Below, in pieces: positions 3,450 through 8,536 of a DNA stretch of 21,521 nt (position 1 is its first letter; each line of letters starts with the position of its first letter). Source of the stretch: a virus (lineage: Duplodnaviria > Heunggongvirae > Uroviricota > Caudoviricetes); the IMG/VR virus record IMGVR_UViG_2645727635_000012; one strand, written 5' to 3'. Both the position numbers and the translations under genes were made by a program. The notes beneath the pieces were generated by a model, which was given only the letters and a program-made list of their open reading frames with translations, did not search any database and was not told where the DNA came from.

Positions 3450-5108
3450 TTACCATCCTCCTGAACCAAAACGCCCGCCACGGTCACGCCCGGTGCTGCG
3501 TGGGGTGTGTATCTGAAATTTTGCGCTGCGCGATACCGCCAGCGTCCACAGCATGTGCAGACAGTCCGGGCCATCATCGTGGTCGGCTTTGGGGTAGTGG
3601 CGCAGCTGGTCAATCAGCGTCTGATGTGTGTGGCTGATACGAATCAGGCCGTTGGCCATATGCGGCTGAAGGGATTCGATACGCAGTGCCTTATCCTCCA
3701 GCGGGATGACCGGCAGCGCCGGAACCGGCACACCCAGCGCCGCCGAACGCTCAACCAGCACGGTACGCAGAAACTCCTGAAACTGAACGGACTCAAACGA
3801 CCAGCACAGGCAGTGATATTCCCGCTGATACTTAATCACGTCCTCGATAAGTTTATTCGGCAGACGTCGGCGGATATCGGCTTCAACCACATCCAGAATG
3901 CCGGTAAAGCGGTTAAAGCCCCCCACGAGAATGGCCGACGGGTCGCGGTTTTTATTCTTCTTCCCGAGACTGGGGTCAACAGCGCCGTAGAACACCCATT
4001 CATCAAGACGGTTAACCCAGAACTTAATGCAGCCCGCAAACAGCGCATCTTCACCGCTGACCGGGTCGTTCTGGTATTCAGAATCAAAGGTGTCATGACC
4101 GTCACGGACACGAATTTTCATCAGCGCCAGCAGGGGACGCGCCGCCCATGACACCACCGACCCGGCGAGCATCTCAGCCTCGTTCTGTCGGTAAAGTGCC
4201 TCCGCTGCTTCCGGCTGTTTGTTGCGGATGAGTTCTTCCCACTCGTCCCACAGCTTCATGTTGGCAGGCCACTGAATAACGGCCTTAAAGCGGGCCGTTT
4301 TCCACATCGGGTTATTGAGTGTGCGCGACAGTACGGAGTCGTAATGCAGGATGGTCCCGATATAAATAATATCGGTTTTACCGCCAGCCTCACCCAGCGG
4401 CATCACGGTTTTGGTGAGCCAGTCATGCAGCTTGTCGCGCTGCTCCGGGTTACGCACCATCTCGTCGTTCTCGATATCGTCGAGGATGACCAGGTCAGGA
4501 CGGTACGGACCGTGGCGCAGACCACGCAGTTTTTTACCACTACCGGCAACGGTCACCTTGATATTGTTGGCTGTGACGATGGTCCCCATACGCCAGACGC
4601 GACCCTGCCCGCACACCTCCGGGAAATCGTTTTTTAAACGGGGGTTAAATTCCAGTTCAGCCTTGATGGCTTCCAGCATCGGATAAGCCTGGTCGATACT
4701 GTCCATAATGATGACCGGGTAATGCTTAATGGCCCGGATAATGTTCCACAGGGTAAACAGCTGAGTCACCAGCGTGGATTTTGCTTCACCACGAGGCGCG
4801 GCGATGGCGTCGTTCTCCGGGTCCGGGCTTGCCACAACCTGTGGCAGACGGCTGAACAGGTATTTATGCAGCTCACTTTTTGCCGGGTTGCGGACGTAAT
4901 GCGGGAAATAGTTTTCGACAAAATAATCGTAGCCCGTCACCGGGTCGCAGACTGCCGCCCGGCGGGCCTGTGTGGCCTGCGGGTTAACATCGAACCCCAG
5001 ACATTCAGCCTCGATGGTCTGGCGGAGGTTGGCGATGTACTCCTGCAGGCTTCTCTGAAACTCTTTAATGGAAAGTTTACGTTTTGCCACGTCACACCTG
5101 GTATACAA
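3450..5108 (-). CDS. Terminase large subunit, Mu gp28-like
   Basis: 552-aa ORF with ATPase-like segment (DLVILDDIENDE) and nuclease-like C-terminal half; alternative GTG start about 18 nt inside preceded by AGGTG. Confidence 0.85.
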   Translation of the reverse strand: MYTRCDVAKRKLSIKEFQRSLQEYIANLRQTIEAECLGFDVNPQATQARRAAVCDPVTGYDYFVENYFPHYVRNPAKSELHKYLFSRLPQVVASPDPENDAIAAPRGEAKSTLVTQLFTLWNIIRAIKHYPVIIMDSIDQAYPMLEAIKAELEFNPRLKNDFPEVCGQGRVWRMGTIVTANNIKVTVAGSGKKLRGLRHGPYRPDLVILDDIENDEMVRNPEQRDKLHDWLTKTVMPLGEAGGKTDIIYIGTILHYDSVLSRTLNNPMWKTARFKAVIQWPANMKLWDEWEELIRNKQPEAAEALYRQNEAEMLAGSVVSWAARPLLALMKIRVRDGHDTFDSEYQNDPVSGEDALFAGCIKFWVNRLDEWVFYGAVDPSLGKKNKNRDPSAILVGGFNRFTGILDVVEADIRRRLPNKLIEDVIKYQREYHCLCWSFESVQFQEFLRTVLVERSAALGVPVPALPVIPLEDKALRIESLQPHMANGLIRISHTHQTLIDQLRHYPKADHDDGPDCLHMLWTLAVSRSAKFQIHTPRSTGRDRGGRFGSGGW

Positions 5109-5142
5109 ATATCAGACGGCCCGGAAAACCGGGCCGCTGTGG

Positions 5143-5643
5143 TTAACTGAAATTATCCTCAAGCTCTTTAGCGAAGCCTTCGAGCACCTCAAGAAACGGG
5201 GCATACTGTGCCGGGTGACGCTCCTTGATGAACGCGCCGAGCCGCTGCACCACTTCCAGTGCCGTGGCGAGCCGGTCGGTTTCCGGCAGGATTTTTTTAC
5301 TGCTGGCCACCGCCTTACTGAGACTGTCAGACAGACTCGCCAGCAGTTCGACGGACTCCTGCGGCGGGATGTCCGGGTTCTGGTTCAGCCGTTCAAGCGT
5401 CGTCTGACACTTCACCACCAGACTGATAAGCACGGTGCGGGCGACACTTTCCAGCCCGTCACCGGCGAGCGCGTGCGCGGCCCGCAGCTTGTCCCAGTCG
5501 TCGCCGTTCTTCATCGCCTGCGTTTTCCAGCGCCGCGCGGTATCGTGCGGCACGGCGTATTTCATGGCGACGATATCCAGCGGAAGCTGGTCAAAGATGT
5601 ACCCGTTACGGACTTTGTCCCTGATATCCTGTGACCACGCCAT
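5143..5643 (-). CDS. Terminase small subunit candidate (Mu gp27-like)
   Basis: 166-aa ORF immediately upstream of TerL in the same orientation; N-terminal region looks like a DNA-binding domain; assignment by synteny. Confidence 0.5.
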   Translation of the reverse strand: MAWSQDIRDKVRNGYIFDQLPLDIVAMKYAVPHDTARRWKTQAMKNGDDWDKLRAAHALAGDGLESVARTVLISLVVKCQTTLERLNQNPDIPPQESVELLASLSDSLSKAVASSKKILPETDRLATALEVVQRLGAFIKERHPAQYAPFLEVLEGFAKELEDNFS

Positions 5644-5849
5644 TAAGTGTCCTTTTGAGCCTGTTCAATCAGGCATTTAACTTCGTCGGGATTTTCAAGA
5701 ACATACACGTTTTTCCCGGTATCCAGCTCAATGATCGTGCCACCATATGCACCACACTGACGGTAAAAATGGGTGATGCGTTCAGCGACTACCATGACAG
5801 CGCTGGTGCTCCCTGAGCCTGCGCATTCTGTAAATCTGATAATGCTCAC
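5643..5849 (-). CDS. Hypothetical small protein (68 aa), GTG start
   Basis: ORF with GAAGGT Shine-Dalgarno 8 nt upstream of GTG; overlaps TerS-like start by 1 nt. Confidence 0.45.
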   Translation of the reverse strand: MSIIRFTECAGSGSTSAVMVVAERITHFYRQCGAYGGTIIELDTGKNVYVLENPDEVKCLIEQAQKDT

Positions 5850-5869
5850 TGTGTCAGACCTTCAAAAAA

Positions 5870-5957
5870 TCAGTTCTGTGATGAACACTGCCGGATGCCG
5901 TCAATAATCCGGCAGACCTGCGCCACCGCATCAAAGAATTGGTAGCCTTGTTAAGTC
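5870..5957. repeat. Partial duplicate of the 3' end of the lipoprotein gene (copy A of a direct repeat; copy B at 6180..6266)
   Basis: About 92 percent identity over the first ~60 bp including the TGA stop, one 3-bp indel; minus-strand translation gives a remnant ...FFDAVAQVCRIIDGIRQCSSQN* paralogous to the lipoprotein C-terminus. Confidence 0.8.
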
Positions 5958-5958
5958 A

Positions 5959-6147
5959 TTAACCCAGTTTCGCCCGAACTAAAGCATCTTTTGCTTCCAG
6001 CAATTTACGTAACCCGACCGACTTTTCCGGCCCGTCTGGCAGAGACTCATCCATTTTTCTTGCCAGATCGCCAATCGGTTTACTCACTTCCTGTAACGAA
6101 GCCGGAAGATGTTCATAAGCGAAATATTTCATAACTGGTGATGCCAT
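5959..6147 (-). CDS. Hypothetical 62-aa protein inserted between the duplicated segments
   Basis: ORF with strong AAGGAG Shine-Dalgarno 5 nt upstream of ATG; flanked by repeat copies A and B. Confidence 0.55.
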   Translation of the reverse strand: MASPVMKYFAYEHLPASLQEVSKPIGDLARKMDESLPDGPEKSVGLRKLLEAKDALVRAKLG

Positions 6148-6179
6148 AACTTCTCCTTAGTGAAACAACTGGCAGATGT

Positions 6180-6362
6180 TCAGTTCTGTGAACACTGCCG
6201 GATGCCATCAACAATCCGGCAGACCTGCGCCGCCGCGTCAAACAGCTGGCCCGCCCTGTTAATGTCTGTGCATCCCACCGGAAGCAACATCATCAGAAAC
6301 AGGGCCAGAACACAGCGCGCGGCTTTACGTGGCGTCCTGTGGGTCCAGTGCTGACGCGTCAT
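6180..6362 (-). CDS. Putative lysis-associated small lipoprotein (o-spanin-like?)
   Basis: 60-aa ORF with basic N-terminus, hydrophobic stretch and Cys (LLPVGC); start overlaps the endolysin stop by 4 nt. Confidence 0.5.
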   Translation of the reverse strand: MTRQHWTHRTPRKAARCVLALFLMMLLPVGCTDINRAGQLFDAAAQVCRIVDGIRQCSQN

Positions 6363-6904
6363 ACCACCACGCGCTCCTTCAGCCAGCCATAAACAAACGA
6401 TTCGTTAGCCTCGCGTTTCTCGGCCAGCTCCAGATAGCGCTCACCCTGCGTGCAGTTCAGGGCTGTCAGCATCACCCGTTCACTGTCCTGACCGCGATTA
6501 TTCAGGAAGGCGCGCAATGCGCTGATAGTACGAGGTCCGATGCGTCCGTCTGCGTCCATATCCGGGTACAGCCTGCCGCGCAGGTTGAAAACGTTCAGCC
6601 AGCGTTGGAGCATTTTTGACGCCACGGATGGCCCCATATTCACACCGGTATCACACAGCTCTGCGGCAATATCAGGGGATAACGCTGCTACCTGGTCAAA
6701 TCGCGGGCCATACCAGTAATCGGCTTCAAGGATATCCAGCGCCTGTTCGCGGGTTAACTCACGCATATCGCCACGGTATCCGTGGGCACGGGCGACTTTT
6801 TCCGTAATGCCCCATTTGGTCGGACCGCCCTTATCGTCAGGGTGATTGACGTAACCGCCTTCTTTGCCCAGGACTTCATCAAAAATGTCATCTTTTGATT
6901 TCAT
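6359..6904 (-). CDS. Endolysin, glycoside hydrolase family 108 with C-terminal peptidoglycan-binding domain
   Basis: N-terminal motif EGGYVNHPDDKGGPTKWGIT is characteristic of GH108; C-terminal region resembles PG_binding_3; sits in the lysis cassette. Confidence 0.85.
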   Translation of the reverse strand: MKSKDDIFDEVLGKEGGYVNHPDDKGGPTKWGITEKVARAHGYRGDMRELTREQALDILEADYWYGPRFDQVAALSPDIAAELCDTGVNMGPSVASKMLQRWLNVFNLRGRLYPDMDADGRIGPRTISALRAFLNNRGQDSERVMLTALNCTQGERYLELAEKREANESFVYGWLKERVVV

Positions 6905-7190
6905 GTGGATGCCTCAGTAACGAAAGGATTTTTGACAAATTCCCGTGCGCCCACACGATAAGCGCACAGAAAACCAGATTCAGCGCCACAACCAGCCAGC
7001 TGGAGTGCGTGTATGTACCGGACAGCCAGCGGAACGGGATGATGATGTAGCCGAGCATCAGCCAGTACGCCAGCCAGGTAATCATCGGTTTATGCGCCGC
7101 ACCGTGGCGGCGATACACAAACAACCCCAGCACAATGGCGAGGCACAGCCAGACGTTCACGATACCGGCAAGGCTACTTTCCATTTCCAC
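6888..7190 (-). CDS. Holin-like membrane protein (100 aa, about 3 predicted TM segments)
   Basis: Strongly hydrophobic segments; immediately upstream of and overlapping the endolysin. Confidence 0.55.
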   Translation of the reverse strand: MEMESSLAGIVNVWLCLAIVLGLFVYRRHGAAHKPMITWLAYWLMLGYIIIPFRWLSGTYTHSSWLVVALNLVFCALIVWAHGNLSKILSLLRHPHEIKR

Positions 7191-7566
7191 CCCCTCCGCC
7201 GCGCAGTCTGGAAAACAGGCCGAACAGCGATGAAATTTCCTGTTGATAAAGAAAGGTCAGTATCTTGATGGATAACGCCGAGACACCGACCGCACACAAT
7301 GCATCGAGTGGCTTGTCGTTGTAGTGGGTCAGCCACTGCATCAGTGACGCAGCCACGCCAGCCCCCAGAACGCCAACCACAAACGCGACGAGCAGGTGGA
7401 TAGCCATTCGCCAGACCGGGATTTCTTTCTGCTGCGTGACAACAAAAAGCGCCCCGGCAAACGCGCCCACCACGACCCCGAAATCGGTATTGGTGAGAAG
7501 GCCAAACACACTGGCACCACCGATGGTGACTGCCACAGCTCCGCCGCCTGATAAGGGTTCAGACAT
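7174..7566 (-). CDS. Holin-like membrane protein (130 aa, multiple TM segments, Gly-rich C-terminus)
   Basis: Start trimmed to the internal ATG preceded by GGAGAAA; hydrophobic Gly/Ala/Val-rich helices; overlaps the next gene. Confidence 0.55.
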   Translation of the reverse strand: MSEPLSGGGAVAVTIGGASVFGLLTNTDFGVVVGAFAGALFVVTQQKEIPVWRMAIHLLVAFVVGVLGAGVAASLMQWLTHYNDKPLDALCAVGVSALSIKILTFLYQQEISSLFGLFSRLRGGGGGNGK

Positions 7567-7753
7567 GAGTTTCTCCTGTAAATCTGAGCCACTGACGGCC
7601 CGTAAATAACACCCTGTCAAAGGCACAAAAGCCTTTTGCAGGGCGCTATCCCTTAAGGTGCCTTGTGGTCTGAGTGGACAGGGTAAACGGTCTGGTGTGG
7701 TGGGTACTGCTGGGGGTGTTCAGCACCCCCGGCAGGTTGATTATCTGGATGGA

Positions 7754-8041
7754 TTAAAGGGAAGCGAGTTTTAATGGTGGCTTATAACATGCCCGCGCCA
7801 GCAGGTTAGCTCTTTCCACGGCATTACGCATTTCCCGTTCTGCGTCAATCATTCTGTTTACGGCGGACAGCACTTCATCATGATTCGTTACTGATTCCGG
7901 GCTTTGGGCCTGTTTCGCCAGGTAACTGGATAAATTGCACATTTCAGCATGTCGGCGACGGGCTGCATCCCGGGCCTTGTCTGAAAATGCGGTATATTCA
8001 CCGAGTACTGCATAGTCGATATCGGTGTCAGAACGCATCAT
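7754..8041 (-). CDS. Hypothetical protein (95 aa), first gene after the Mor/C-family activator
   Basis: ORF with AAGGAG Shine-Dalgarno 7 nt upstream of ATG. Confidence 0.5.
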   Translation of the reverse strand: MMRSDTDIDYAVLGEYTAFSDKARDAARRRHAEMCNLSSYLAKQAQSPESVTNHDEVLSAVNRMIDAEREMRNAVERANLLARACYKPPLKLASL

Positions 8042-8068
8042 TTCGTGTCTCCTTTTTTCTGAGGCCCA

Positions 8069-8536
8069 TTAATCAAAAAGCCCCACCTGGGTGGGGCTTT
8101 TCAGCGAAGTCTGTTTTTGTCGTCGGTGTATCAGCTGCCATGCGTACCGGTCTGAAATGCCGTAACGGGGACAGAGCAGTGCCAGCGCCTGCCGGTGTGA
8201 GCATCCGTCTTTTACATGCTGCTGTAAATCAGCCATAAAACGGGTGTTACGCAGGGCACGTAACGCATGATCGCAACGGGGAATGTAAAACGGAGCACCG
8301 CCAAGAAAGCGGATCAGTTTGTTGATTTCGTCTTCGGTCAGCACGTCATGTAACAGGGCATGGACACCGCCGGTGCGTTCGGCGTGTACGCCGGTTTTAC
8401 CGCTTAACGTCACGCCACCAAAAGAACGAATCAACCGGGTCAGGGCGGGGAAGCCAATCACGCTAATCAGTTGCTGCACGGAATCGGGCAGCAGTGCCTG
8501 CGCATCGCGAAGATCTGTTTCACTGAAGGTCTGCAT
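8069..8536 (-). CDS. Mor/C-family transcriptional activator (middle or late gene activator)
   Basis: 155 aa; C-terminal region LGGAPFYIPR...RYGISDRYAWQLI matches the Mor/C family signature; GGAGA Shine-Dalgarno; sits between early region and lysis genes. Confidence 0.8.
   Translation of the reverse strand: MQTFSETDLRDAQALLPDSVQQLISVIGFPALTRLIRSFGGVTLSGKTGVHAERTGGVHALLHDVLTEDEINKLIRFLGGAPFYIPRCDHALRALRNTRFMADLQQHVKDGCSHRQALALLCPRYGISDRYAWQLIHRRQKQTSLKSPTQVGLFD
8075..8101 (-). terminator. Intrinsic terminator overlapping the last codons and stop of the Mor/C-family gene
   Basis: GC-rich stem AGCCCCAC / GTGGGGCT flanked by A-run and T-run; on the minus strand the hairpin is followed by UUUUUGAUUAA. 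Confidence 0.6.

What the first reader, a model, noticed from the sequence alone, without database searches (positions are those of the whole stretch)
5870..6266. Duplicated gene end flanking a small inserted gene in the lysis cassette
The last ~88 bp of the lipoprotein gene (6180..6266) recur at 5870..5957, about 92 percent identical over the first ~60 bp, with a 3-bp indel and a decayed in-frame remnant. Between the copies lies a 62-aa ORF with a strong AAGGAG ribosome-binding site. Both copies carry a conserved 9-bp-stem inverted repeat CTGCCGGAT...ATCCGGCAG. This looks like a recent cassette insertion; the 62-aa product has no obvious family.
Basis: seen in the sequence. Interest (0 to 1): 0.6.

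Follow-up and report, generated by a model that had tools for sequence, protein, structure and literature searches.

The report
Small gene inserted, leaving duplicated scar
A Mu-like prophage has picked up a 62-amino-acid gene of unknown function from lambda-like phages at the end of its lysis genes, leaving an 85-base duplicated scar; the insertion is ordinary phage mosaicism, but the gene belongs to a very large uncharacterised phage family that is sometimes fused to known immune-signal 'sponge' proteins.

Summary
Window 5870-5954 repeats 6180-6262, the 3' end of a 60-aa lipoprotein gene on the minus strand: 72 of 82 aligned bases match, with indels of 3 nt and 1 nt. Between the copies lie 225 unique bases: a spacer with an AAGGAG ribosome-binding site, and a 62-aa ORF.

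Closely related E. coli Mu-like prophages have the exact empty site, 307-310 bp shorter with one intact lipoprotein gene. So this is a presence/absence polymorphism.

The insert has 45% GC against 55-57% in the flanks. It varies little among carriers and sits on different flanking haplotypes. Lambdoid prophages carry a homologous lipoprotein + 32-nt spacer + 62-aa gene module. Homology to the window stops at the 62-aa stop codon. Synonymous divergence is about 0.4 for the 62-aa gene and about 1.5 for the adjacent lipoprotein gene. Most likely the spacer and ORF were copied in by short-homology recombination or template switching, which duplicated the gene end.

The protein has thousands of phage homologues from Proteobacteria to Actinobacteria, under strong purifying selection. 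It has no Pfam or PDB match. It occurs fused to Sequestin and Acb2 sponge domains, so it is a candidate anti-defence protein. That function is untested.

The 9-bp hairpin is present but unremarkable.

The parts
6359..6904 (-). Endolysin (GH108 plus PG_binding_3). Context: last enzyme gene of the lysis cassette; its stop codon overlaps the lipoprotein start (ATGA).
   Evidence: Pfam PF05838 6.7e-27 and PF09374 2.8e-26; ORF list.
6180..6362 (-). Intact 60-aa probable lipoprotein gene (Lp): basic N-terminus, hydrophobic core, then ..LLPVGC. The lambdoid homologues have a canonical LVGC lipobox.
   Evidence: ORF; phrog_7528 2.4e-42; no Pfam or NCBIfam match; alignment with homologues.
6180..6262 (-). 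Repeat copy B: the genuine 3' end of the Lp gene.
   Evidence: Apart from two loop positions it is identical to the empty-site alleles L001 and L002.
6195..6222 (-). Hairpin in copy B: 9-bp perfect stem and 10-nt loop, inside the codons for C-R-I-V-D-G-I-R-Q-C.
   Evidence: I8. RNA fold z = -1.6; 14 of 200 shuffles fold at least as well.
6148..6179 (-). 32-nt spacer carrying the AAGGAG ribosome-binding site. It is part of the imported segment and is homologous to the 32-nt spacer of the lambdoid Lp'-62aa modules.
5959..6147 (-). 62-aa ORF: a cytoplasmic all-helical protein (short N-terminal helix plus a helical hairpin) with the invariant motif R-K-L-L-E-A-K-D. Candidate anti-defence protein; function untested.
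   Evidence: phrog_1761 1.7e-33; 3381 homologues; 4416 representative clusters; dN/dS 0.04-0.17; AF2 pLDDT 94.5; no Pfam, NCBIfam, PADLOC or PDB match.
5955..5958 (-). Right-hand junction (TGAC after TAA), next to a 7-of-8-nt patch shared by the lambdoid 3' flank (AGGCATTA) and the resident Lp gene (AGACATTA).
   Evidence: Alignments. The role of the microhomology is an inference.
5870..5954 (-). Repeat copy A: non-coding remnant of the Lp 3' end, followed by the native stop codon, T-run and ribosome-binding site of the next gene.
   Evidence: The stop-proximal ~50 nt carry the same polymorphisms as the empty alleles; the junction-proximal ~36 nt carry 8 substitutions plus 1 indel shared by all filled alleles.
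5888..5915 (-). Hairpin in copy A: the same 9-bp stem.
   Evidence: I6. RNA fold z = -1.8. The stem is unchanged in all 10 filled alleles, while the loop and flanks vary.
5643..5849 (-). 68-aa ORF (phrog_7691), the first gene downstream of the insertion. Its upstream context is the same as in the empty alleles.
5143..5643 (-). DUF1804 (Mu gp27-like) gene, marking the start of the packaging module. Context only.
   Evidence: Pfam PF08822 2.8e-52.

Best explanation
This is the scar of a gene acquisition in a Mu-like (transposable) prophage.

Ground state, still present in most relatives: holin, holin, endolysin, a 60-aa lipoprotein gene (Lp), then directly the 68-aa gene and the packaging genes.

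The acquisition: a 225-bp segment was copied in immediately after the Lp stop codon. It consists of a 32-nt leader with a ribosome-binding site, the 62-aa ORF, and 4 nt. The source was the homologous 'Lp' + 32-nt spacer + 62-aa gene' module found in lambdoid prophages of E. coli, Salmonella and Citrobacter.

Inferred mechanism: the exchange entered the donor at the short identical stretch at the very end of the two Lp genes (..GGCAGTGT...CAGAACTGA). It returned to the resident genome about 85 nt upstream of where it left, at a short patch similar to the donor's 3' flank (AGGCATTA against AGACATTA). Short-homology recombination or replicative template switching of this kind duplicates the skipped-back 85 nt. 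That leaves one intact Lp gene upstream of the new gene and a dead copy of its 3' end downstream.

Later history: the cassette spread among Mu-like prophages by ordinary homologous recombination in the flanks. It can be lost precisely by recombination between the two direct repeats.

Expression (inferred): the 62-aa gene has no promoter of its own here, so it would be translated from the late lysis/head transcript.

The product: a small cytoplasmic helical protein of a very large, strongly conserved phage family. The most likely role, which is inferred and untested, is counter-defence. It may act as an oligomeric binder or 'sponge' for a conserved host immune signal or factor.

The 9-bp hairpin is a resident feature of the Lp 3' end and was duplicated as a passenger.
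For: Insertion and empty site
- 32 complete E. coli genomes match the flanks in two pieces spanning 1041-1044 bp, against 1351 bp in the window.
- Alignment with L001 and L002 shows a clean 307/310-bp gap and one intact Lp gene.
- 20 of 21 IMG/VR loci with this Lp are empty.

Foreign origin and single origin
- The insert has 45% GC against 55-57% in the flanks.
- Pairwise diversity is 0.006 in the insert, 0.026-0.036 in the repeats and about 0.15 in the flanks.
- All filled alleles share the same junction and the same decayed distal remnant.

Spread by recombination
- Filled alleles sit on different flanking haplotypes, including a different endolysin (M15) in L009.
- The window's downstream flank is 99.4% identical to the empty alleles L001 and L033, which also share the TCA triplet of the window's remnant.

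Donor module
- L041, L043-L050 and L057 carry Lp', a 32-nt spacer and the 62-aa gene with the same spacing.
- DNA homology to the window ends at the 62-aa stop codon.
- For the same pairs, the 62-aa gene has dS about 0.42-0.76 (86-89% nt identity), while the adjacent Lp has dS about 1.5-1.9 (65% nt identity). This places the left breakpoint near the Lp stop codon.

Loss by repeat recombination
- The empty allele L020 combines the copy-B-type loop (GTTGAT) with a copy-A-type tail (TCGCAG).

The gene is real
- dN/dS is 0.04-0.17.
- There are thousands of homologues and 346 phage genome records across Vibrio, Acinetobacter, Erwinia, Mycobacterium, Gordonia, Brevibacterium and Ruegeria.

Counter-defence lead
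- Among 77 longer representatives, the domain is fused to Sequestin PF21825 in 4 and to the Acb2/Tad1 hairpin PF24729 in 1, always as separate domains.
- Fusion to known sponges is the criterion by which Sequestin itself was discovered (PMC12265669).
- Natural tandem two-domain versions exist and are predicted to form a compact unit (pTM 0.82). This suggests the single-domain form acts at least as a dimer.
- One of 90 neighbour clusters is Tad2-like.
Against: - The direction of change cannot be proved for any individual allele. Empty alleles could be deletions.
- The actual donor was not found; the best lambdoid copies are only 86-89% identical.
- The junction-proximal part of the remnant is far more diverged (8 substitutions and 1 indel in ~36 nt) than expected for a recent event. 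The changes show no codon-position bias, and I cannot explain this with confidence.
- The microhomologies are short and the junction is not a perfect hybrid of donor and resident.
- The diversity estimate is biased, because L003-L010 were retrieved by exact protein identity.
- The RefSeq E. coli collection contained no filled allele at all, although GenBank complete genomes carry it. Frequencies are therefore unreliable.
- On function: the window protein does not match Sequestin, Acb2 or any PDB chain by sequence or fold.
- Neighbouring genes are mostly structural, lysis or packaging genes rather than anti-defence genes.
- Late-operon expression is not what one would expect for an inhibitor of early immune signalling.
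- Other fusion partners (RyR, Clp_N, FtsK_gamma, RMF, Com zinc ribbon) point nowhere in particular.
Confidence: 0.6

Rival explanations
1. The filled arrangement is the older state in this phage group, and the common 'empty' alleles are secondary deletions made by recombination or slippage between the two 85-bp direct repeats. On this view the finding records a gene being lost rather than recently gained.
For: - Recombination between the repeats would regenerate the empty structure exactly.
- The empty allele L020 is a copy-B/copy-A chimera.
- The distal remnant is strongly decayed, which suggests age.
- The Lp + 62-aa pair is conserved in lambdoid relatives.
Against: - The insert has foreign GC content and very low diversity compared with the flanks.
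- Synonymous divergence from the lambdoid copies is 3-4 times lower for the 62-aa gene than for the adjacent Lp.
- Empty alleles are the large majority and are diverse.
- A duplication-creating insertion is still needed at the origin.
Confidence: 0.2
2. The 62-aa protein is a lysis or packaging accessory, such as a lysis-timing regulator or a partner of the lipoprotein, and not a counter-defence protein.
For: In enterobacterial prophages it nearly always sits directly after the lysis cassette and before HNH or terminase. It is often 32 nt after the Lp gene, in the late operon.
Against: - It has no signal peptide or transmembrane segment.
- Homologues of 50-72% identity occur in phages of Actinobacteria, which lack an outer membrane, and in early or other regions of N4-like, jumbo and Mu-like phages.
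- Many lambdoid phages carry it without Lp, and most Mu-like relatives lyse without it.
- The lysis-terminase boundary is a generic accessory-gene slot.
Confidence: 0.12
3. The 62-aa protein binds a conserved host macromolecule, for example a component of transcription, translation, proteolysis or DNA metabolism, rather than an immune signal. It would then be a host-takeover factor.
For: - Conservation across bacterial phyla is extreme, including an invariant charged helix face RKLLEAKD..VR.
- Occasional fusions to RMF, Clp_N and FtsK_gamma domains are seen.
- No positive evidence for nucleotide binding exists.
Against: - The commonest identifiable fusion partners are immune-signal sponges.
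- The single-occurrence fusions may be gene-calling artefacts.
- No target can be named.
Confidence: 0.2
4. The hairpin CTGCCGGAT(N10)ATCCGGCAG is a site-specific recombination or cassette-capture site (attC-like or REP-like) that directed the insertion.
For: A perfect 9-bp inverted repeat lies in both repeat copies. It is loosely reminiscent of REP arms (GCCGGATG...ATCCGGC), a comparison from my own recollection that was not tested. The stems are unchanged in every filled allele and carry a single C-to-T change in one empty allele (L023), while the loop and flanks vary.
Against: - The hairpin lies in the middle of the duplicated segment, not at either junction.
- It is present in all empty alleles.
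- Its folding energy is unremarkable (z = -1.6 and -1.8).
- The lambdoid Lp' genes have only a degraded version, yet they carry the same downstream gene.
- No integron-type integrase or RAYT gene was seen near the site.
Confidence: 0.03

Closest known systems
Phage 'morons': accessory genes inserted between conserved modules of temperate phages (concept of Juhala, Hendrix and colleagues; cited from my own knowledge)
   Same: - A small extra gene that is present or absent between otherwise collinear relatives.
- Located at the lysis/packaging boundary.
- Base composition differs from the flanks.
- In lambdoid carriers the gene is bracketed by an upstream terminator and a downstream conserved hairpin.
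   Different: - In the Mu-like allele no promoter or terminator of its own is detectable.
- The insertion is flanked by an ~85-bp duplication of the neighbouring gene's end.
- Any benefit to the lysogen is unknown.
Sequestin (Pfam PF21825, crAss001_48-like) anti-Thoeris sponge (PMC12265669)
   Same: - About 60-80 aa, all-helical, mostly stand-alone, widespread in phages of many phyla.
- Found fused to other sponge domains.
- The 62-aa domain is itself fused to Sequestin in several natural proteins.
   Different: - The window protein and 25 homologues give no PF21825 match.
- The conserved residues differ: H13, S22, R47-K48, E51, K53-D54 and R58 here, against R8, E12, Q47 and R61 in SequestinA.
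- No ligand binding has been shown.
Acb2 / T4 Vs.4 cyclic-oligonucleotide sponge (Acb2/Tad1 hairpin domain, PF24729)
   Same: - A small helical phage protein with a broad host range.
- One natural protein (P0130) carries an Acb2 hairpin domain followed by the 62-aa domain.
- 3 of 25 homologues give sub-threshold PF24729 hits, best E = 0.025.
   Different: - The window protein gives no significant match.
- Profile comparison with T4 Vs.4 has probability 0.2.
Insertions flanked by duplications, as produced by short-homology or template-switch events (illegitimate recombination, MMBIR/FoSTeS-type; relaxed Rad52-like recombination between phages; from my own knowledge)
   Same: - Foreign DNA bounded by a direct duplication of target sequence.
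- Short identities at both breakpoints.
- Mutations clustered near one junction.
   Different: The mechanism is inferred from sequence only. The junction is not a perfect hybrid, and no intermediate or donor was recovered.
Transposon target-site duplication and integron cassette insertion
   Same: Direct repeats flank an inserted promoterless ORF, and an inverted repeat lies nearby.
   Different: - The duplication is 85 bp and gene-derived, far longer than a target-site duplication.
- There are no terminal inverted repeats, transposase, integrase or attI.
- The repeats are diverged and include an indel.
- The inverted repeat is internal to the duplication.

Membership tests
Phage moron (accessory gene cassette) | Present in some phages and absent from closely related phages at the same map position | tested here: met
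   Empty sites in L001, L002 and 20 IMG/VR loci; filled sites in the window, L003-L010 and L019.
Phage moron (accessory gene cassette) | Nucleotide composition distinct from the flanking phage genes | tested here: met
   Unique insert 45.3% GC against 55.1% and 56.6% in the 700-bp flanks (profile).
Phage moron (accessory gene cassette) | Own promoter and terminator, allowing expression from the repressed prophage | tested here: not met
   No sigma-70-like promoter in 5000-8200 and no terminator after the ORF in the window. Lambdoid carriers have an upstream terminator and a downstream conserved hairpin but no room for a promoter.
Sequestin (PF21825) | Significant match to the Pfam PF21825 model | tested here: not met
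   No hit for the window protein at E <= 0.1, and none among 25 homologues at E <= 1. PF21825 appears only as a separate fused domain.
Sequestin (PF21825) | Binds and sequesters 3'cADPR and inhibits type I Thoeris | not testable with these tools
   Requires biochemistry and phage assays (PMC12265669).
Acb2 / Tad1 hairpin (PF24729) | Significant sequence or structural similarity to Acb2 or Vs.4 | tested here: not met
Viral immune-signal sponge (generic class) | Short protein (<100-200 aa) of phage origin that forms homo-oligomers | tested here: inconclusive
   62 aa and phage-borne. Natural tandem duplications are predicted to form a compact unit (pTM 0.82), which suggests dimerisation, but no multimer model or experiment was possible.
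Viral immune-signal sponge (generic class) | Positively charged inter-protomer pocket that binds a nucleotide signal | not testable with these tools
   Invariant R47, K48, K53 and R58 are compatible with this, but coordinates and ligand modelling were not available.
Transposable element insertion | Short target-site duplication, terminal inverted repeats, and a transposase or passenger structure | tested here: not met
   The duplication is 83-85 bp and diverged. No terminal inverted repeats bound the 225-bp insert, which holds only the 62-aa ORF.
Integron gene cassette | An attC recombination site at the cassette's 3' end, with an integron integrase and attI nearby | tested here: inconclusive
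   No attC-like element at the junctions: the only inverted repeat is internal to the duplicated gene end and is present in the empty alleles. No integrase was seen next to the site. I did not run a dedicated attC model.
o-spanin (Rz1-like), for the duplicated lipoprotein gene | Outer-membrane lipoprotein encoded with a partner i-spanin (embedded, overlapping or adjacent) in the lysis cassette | tested here: not met
   No Rz/Rz1 Pfam hit for Lp. No overlapping or adjacent ORF with a transmembrane domain on the same strand. The relatives show the same gene order without an i-spanin.

The most novel reading that the evidence does not exclude
The 62-aa protein would be the founding example of a new, very widespread family of phage counter-defence proteins. 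It would be structurally unrelated to Acb2, Tad1, Tad2, Acb4, Sequestin and Lockin. It would act as a small helical oligomer that sequesters a conserved immune signalling molecule or another universal defence component, and it would spread between unrelated temperate phages as a minimal 225-bp cassette.
Probability: 0.3. Interest if true: 0.7.

Novelty: new member of a known kind. Interest (0 to 1): 0.4.

Why it matters
The locus is an unusually clean natural record of how a temperate phage gains, and can precisely lose, a single accessory gene. The empty site, the filled site, the likely donor module, both breakpoints and the duplicated scar are all recoverable from sequence.

The cargo matters more than the scar. 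It belongs to a family with thousands of members, from phages of E. coli to Mycobacterium. The family has no annotation, no Pfam model and no structural relative, yet it is repeatedly fused to experimentally proven immune-signal sponges. That makes it a cheap and well-motivated candidate for anti-defence screening.

If the prediction fails, the finding remains an ordinary example of phage mosaicism.

Tried and rejected
- Sequestin and Lockin identity. No PF21825 hit, and Lockin is a beta-sheet hexamer.
- Fold search with the natural tandem protein as a pseudo-dimer. No significant match.
- PADLOC and NCBIfam. Nothing for the 62-aa, Lp or 68-aa proteins.
- Literature searches for phrog_1761, the RKLLEAKD motif and papers citing Sequestin. 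No description of this family was found.
- Hairpin as a terminator or structured RNA. It has no T-run, z is only -1.6 and -1.8, and there is no Rfam match.
- Search for an intact Lp allele carrying the remnant's diverged distal sequence. Only the window's own IMG/VR contig matched, and a species-representative genome scan found just four Lp loci.
- Neighbourhood enrichment for anti-defence genes. Neighbours are mostly structural, lysis and packaging genes, with a single Tad2-like neighbour. The 80 loci were dominated by one phage group, so the test is weak.
- Megablast of the region against deposited phage genomes. No match.
- Frequency estimate in RefSeq E. coli. That collection holds no filled allele, although GenBank genomes do, so I do not use it for frequencies.
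Full report
**1. The observation**

All genes in this part of the window run on the minus strand. In order of transcription they are:
- a Phage_holin_8 protein (7174-7626);
- a 3-TM holin (6888-7190);
- a GH108/PG_binding_3 endolysin (6359-6904);
- a 60-aa ORF with a lipoprotein-type N-terminus (6180-6362, here 'Lp');
- a 62-aa ORF (5959-6147);
- a 68-aa ORF (5643-5849);
- a DUF1804 (Mu gp27-like) protein (5143-5643);
- the large terminase.

The repeat finder reports 5882-5942 against 6189-6249 (61 nt, 89%) and 5870-5881 against 6180-6191 (12/12). It also reports the perfect 9-bp inverted repeat CTGCCGGAT/ATCCGGCAG in both copies. A global alignment of 5870-5954 with 6180-6262 has 72 identities in 82 aligned columns, with one 3-nt and one 1-nt indel. 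Its local score is 58, against at most 20 in 500 shuffles. The AAGGAG ribosome-binding site lies 5 nt before the ATG of the 62-aa ORF. The description is therefore correct. The only adjustment is that the secure duplication is about 83-85 nt rather than 88.

**2. The element is an insertion/deletion polymorphism in a Mu-like prophage**

Relatives of the locus carry Mor, GemA, MuB, Mu-type portal and Mu F genes. A megablast of 5600-6950 against complete E. coli genomes found 32 genomes that match both flanks at 93-97%, but over only 1041-1044 bp instead of 1351 bp.

Alignment with two of these (L001 and L002) shows a single clean gap of 307 or 310 bp. The empty alleles have one intact Lp gene followed directly by the T-run, ribosome-binding site and 68-aa gene. 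Of 21 IMG/VR loci that encode this Lp, 20 are empty and one (L019) is filled. L019 is identical to the window in the 700-bp flanks and the insert that I compared. Eight further filled loci from independent assemblies (L003-L010) have the same structure.

**3. Where the insert came from**

The 62-aa gene occurs in many lambdoid prophages. In Klebsiella and Enterobacter phages it stands alone between the spanin genes and HNH or terminase. There it is preceded by a terminator and followed by a conserved hairpin.

In other lambdoid prophages of Salmonella, E. coli and Citrobacter, which have the same type of lysis cassette, it is preceded by a homologue of Lp (57-60 aa, 56-60% identical). The 32-nt spacer is the same length as in the window.

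DNA similarity between the window and these modules runs through Lp, the spacer and the 62-aa gene, and stops at the 62-aa stop codon (window 5959). What follows in the lambdoid phages is the conserved hairpin. What follows in the window is the remnant of Lp.

The two adjacent genes have different histories. Against the same lambdoid loci:
- the 62-aa gene is 86-89% identical, with dS about 0.42-0.76;
- Lp is only about 65% identical, with dS about 1.5-1.9.

The unique 225 bp have 45% GC against 55-57% in the flanks. Among ten filled alleles they differ at 0-3 positions (pairwise 0.006), while the repeats differ at 0.026-0.036 and the flanks far more. This comparison is biased, because eight of the loci were fetched by exact protein identity. 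Together the data indicate that the spacer and ORF were imported into a resident genome that already had Lp.

**4. How the duplication probably arose (inference)**

The left breakpoint coincides with the last bases of Lp. Resident and lambdoid genes are identical there (GGCAGTGT ... CAGAACTGA).

The right breakpoint lies 4 nt after the 62-aa stop codon. The lambdoid 3' flank at that point reads TAAGGCATTACAG, and the resident Lp about 88 nt before its end reads CAGACATTAACAG. This gives a 7-of-8-nt patch.

An exchange could leave the resident genome at the end of Lp, copy the donor's spacer and ORF, and re-enter the resident about 85 nt upstream of the exit point. That produces exactly the observed structure: intact Lp, new gene, then a dead copy of the last 85 nt. 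Short-homology recombination between co-resident prophages, or replicative template switching, would both do this. The sequence cannot tell them apart. The junction is also not a perfect hybrid.

**5. Later history**

The stop-proximal ~50 nt of the remnant carry the same polymorphisms that segregate in the intact genes of empty alleles:
- the TCA triplet of L001 and L033 is in the window's remnant;
- the GGT...TCGCAG variant of L021, L026, L034 and L036 is in the remnants of L009 and L010.

Filled alleles also sit on different flanking haplotypes, including one with an M15 endolysin instead of GH108. The cassette has therefore moved among these prophages by homologous recombination.

The junction-proximal ~36 nt of the remnant are shared by all filled alleles. 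They differ from every intact allele at 8 positions plus one indel, with no bias toward third codon positions (2:3:3). I read this as decay or junction-associated mutation rather than descent from a diverged functional allele. I cannot decide between those, and it is the main reason to be careful with the word 'recent'.

Recombination between the two repeats would restore the empty allele precisely. One empty allele (L020) has the copy-B loop variant joined to a copy-A tail variant, as such a deletion would produce. Some empty alleles may therefore be secondary losses.

**6. The hairpin**

The 9-bp stem lies inside the coding sequence for C-R-I-(I/V)-D-G-I-R-Q-C. It is present in every empty allele and sits in the middle of the duplicated segment, not at a junction. 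As RNA it folds no better than roughly 5-7% of shuffles (z = -1.6 and -1.8). It has no T-run and no Rfam match.

There is a weak hint of constraint. Across about 35 copies the stems show a single C-to-T change that keeps a G-U pair, while four loop positions vary. The stems are also intact in all non-coding remnants. These copies exchange sequence with each other, so I give this little weight. The hairpin is best treated as a passenger of the duplication.

**7. The 62-aa protein**

The gene is real. dN/dS is 0.04-0.17, and dN is only about 0.09 even where synonymous sites are saturated. The family is very large:
- 3381 homologues at 90% clustering;
- 4416 representative clusters at 50% identity;
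- at least 584 IMG/VR loci;
- 346 deposited phage genomes, all annotated 'hypothetical'.

The phage genomes include hosts in Vibrio, Acinetobacter, Erwinia (jumbo phages), Alteromonas, Ruegeria and Dinoroseobacter, and the Actinobacteria Mycobacterium, Gordonia and Brevibacterium, at 50-79% identity. A Xanthobacter prophage copy is 89% identical.

The family corresponds to phrog_1761 and phrog_5120. It has no Pfam, NCBIfam or PADLOC model. Invariant or nearly invariant residues are F9, H13-L14-P15, L18, S22, A29, L36, E41, G45, R47-K48-L49-L50-E51-A52-K53-D54, V57 and R58.

**8. Functional lead**

Among 77 longer family representatives:
- four carry a C-terminal Sequestin domain (PF21825, best E = 1.8e-19);
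- one carries an N-terminal Acb2/Tad1 hairpin domain (PF24729, above its curated cut-off).

In each case the extra domain is clearly separate from the 62-aa domain. Single cases are fused to RyR, Clp_N, FtsK_gamma, RMF and a Com zinc ribbon.

Sequestin and Acb2 are experimentally established sponges for Thoeris and CBASS signals. Fusion to known sponges was the criterion that led to Sequestin's discovery (PMC12265669).

Natural tandem duplications of the domain exist. One is predicted to fold as a compact two-domain unit (pTM 0.82), which suggests the single-domain protein works at least as a dimer. That pseudo-dimer has no PDB match either.

Against this reading:
- the protein is not detectably related to any known sponge;
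- its neighbours are mostly structural, lysis or packaging genes, with one Tad2-like exception;
- in these prophages it lies in the late operon.

I therefore put the counter-defence reading at roughly one in three. A role in lysis is less likely, given the Actinobacterial homologues, the absence of any export signal, and the many relatives that lyse without it.

**9. Verdict**

The claim that the product has no family is wrong.

As a phenomenon this is a well-documented instance of a known kind: accessory-gene gain by illegitimate recombination, followed by spread through homologous recombination. The added value is twofold. The event can be reconstructed completely. And the cargo is a very widespread, unannotated and structurally orphan phage protein that is linked by domain fusion to immune-signal sponges.

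Noticed in passing
L011:3690-3730, L012:3690-3730, L045:3190-3230, L049:3211-3250 and others (lambdoid relatives); absent from the window: Directly after the 62-aa stop codon, all lambdoid carriers have a conserved two-tier hairpin: G(G/C)CATTAC, a 9-10-bp inner stem, then GATAATG. Seven of its 15 pairs show compensatory changes, z is -4.7 to -5.5, and it has no T-run and no Rfam family. The same element follows Lp in a Citrobacter prophage (L056) that carries different filler DNA instead of the 62-aa gene. It looks like a conserved boundary or 3'-end element of this accessory slot.
   Followed up: partly
window 6180-7626 (lysis cassette); same in L001, L004, L043: The cassette has two holin-family genes, an endolysin and only a 60-aa orphan lipoprotein. 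No i-spanin/o-spanin pair or unimolecular spanin is recognisable. Mature Lp would be about 30 residues with two further conserved cysteines, which is too short to span the periplasm. In the Mu-like alleles the lipobox has Pro at -3 (LLPVGC); in the lambdoid homologues it is the canonical LVGC.
   Followed up: partly
window 5108-5143 compared with L001:1757-2497 and L009:5049-5789: A second presence/absence polymorphism. Some relatives carry a 246-aa N6/N4 DNA methyltransferase gene between the DUF1804 gene and the large terminase gene. The window has only a ~35-nt gap there, containing a GC-rich hairpin (5116-5137, minus strand).
   Followed up: no
L016:3501-3689 and L017 (Xanthobacter prophage): An alphaproteobacterial prophage encodes a copy of the 62-aa protein that is 89% identical in protein and 71% in DNA, with saturated synonymous sites. 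It lies between head and tail genes rather than next to lysis genes. Mycobacterium phage Phayonce gp71 is 72% identical. This is unusually high conservation for a 62-residue phage accessory protein.
   Followed up: partly
L011-L015, about 20-45 nt upstream of the 62-aa ATG: In lambdoid carriers without Lp, the gene is preceded by a conserved intrinsic terminator (GCCTCGCAATAGCGGGGCTTTTT) only ~20 nt before the start codon. That leaves no room for a promoter, so expression would depend on antiterminated late transcription.
   Followed up: no
E. coli genome collection compared with L003 (CP057408.1) and L006 (CP057075.1): The RefSeq complete-genome E. coli collection returned no match to the 62-aa gene by megablast. 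In distant mode it returned only 12 lambdoid-type copies. Yet GenBank complete E. coli genomes carry the identical filled allele. Frequencies of filled against empty alleles from that collection are therefore not trustworthy.
   Followed up: partly
L003:1-2554 and L006:1-2554: In two E. coli genomes the filled Mu-like prophage has an IS66-family element (TnpA, TnpB and DDE transposase) inserted immediately upstream of, and apparently truncating the start of, the first holin gene. This suggests these prophage copies are decaying.
   Followed up: no
L011:1496-1567: A Klebsiella lambdoid prophage carrying the 62-aa gene has a strong match to the isrJ Hfq-binding sRNA family (77 bits) and a tRNA gene between the Q antiterminator and the lysis genes.
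   Followed up: no
P0197, P0232, P0262; P0191, P0264; P0173, P0225; P0137, P0265 (family representatives): There are several recurrent N- or C-terminal fusion partners of the 62-aa domain with no Pfam match. Examples are a ~75-aa module ending ..GY(L/V)VEYxxGYxSWSPKxxFEEAY, and a module containing ..AIE(I/L)CGASPELTxAV... If the 62-aa domain proves to be an anti-defence module, these partners are further candidates.
   Followed up: no
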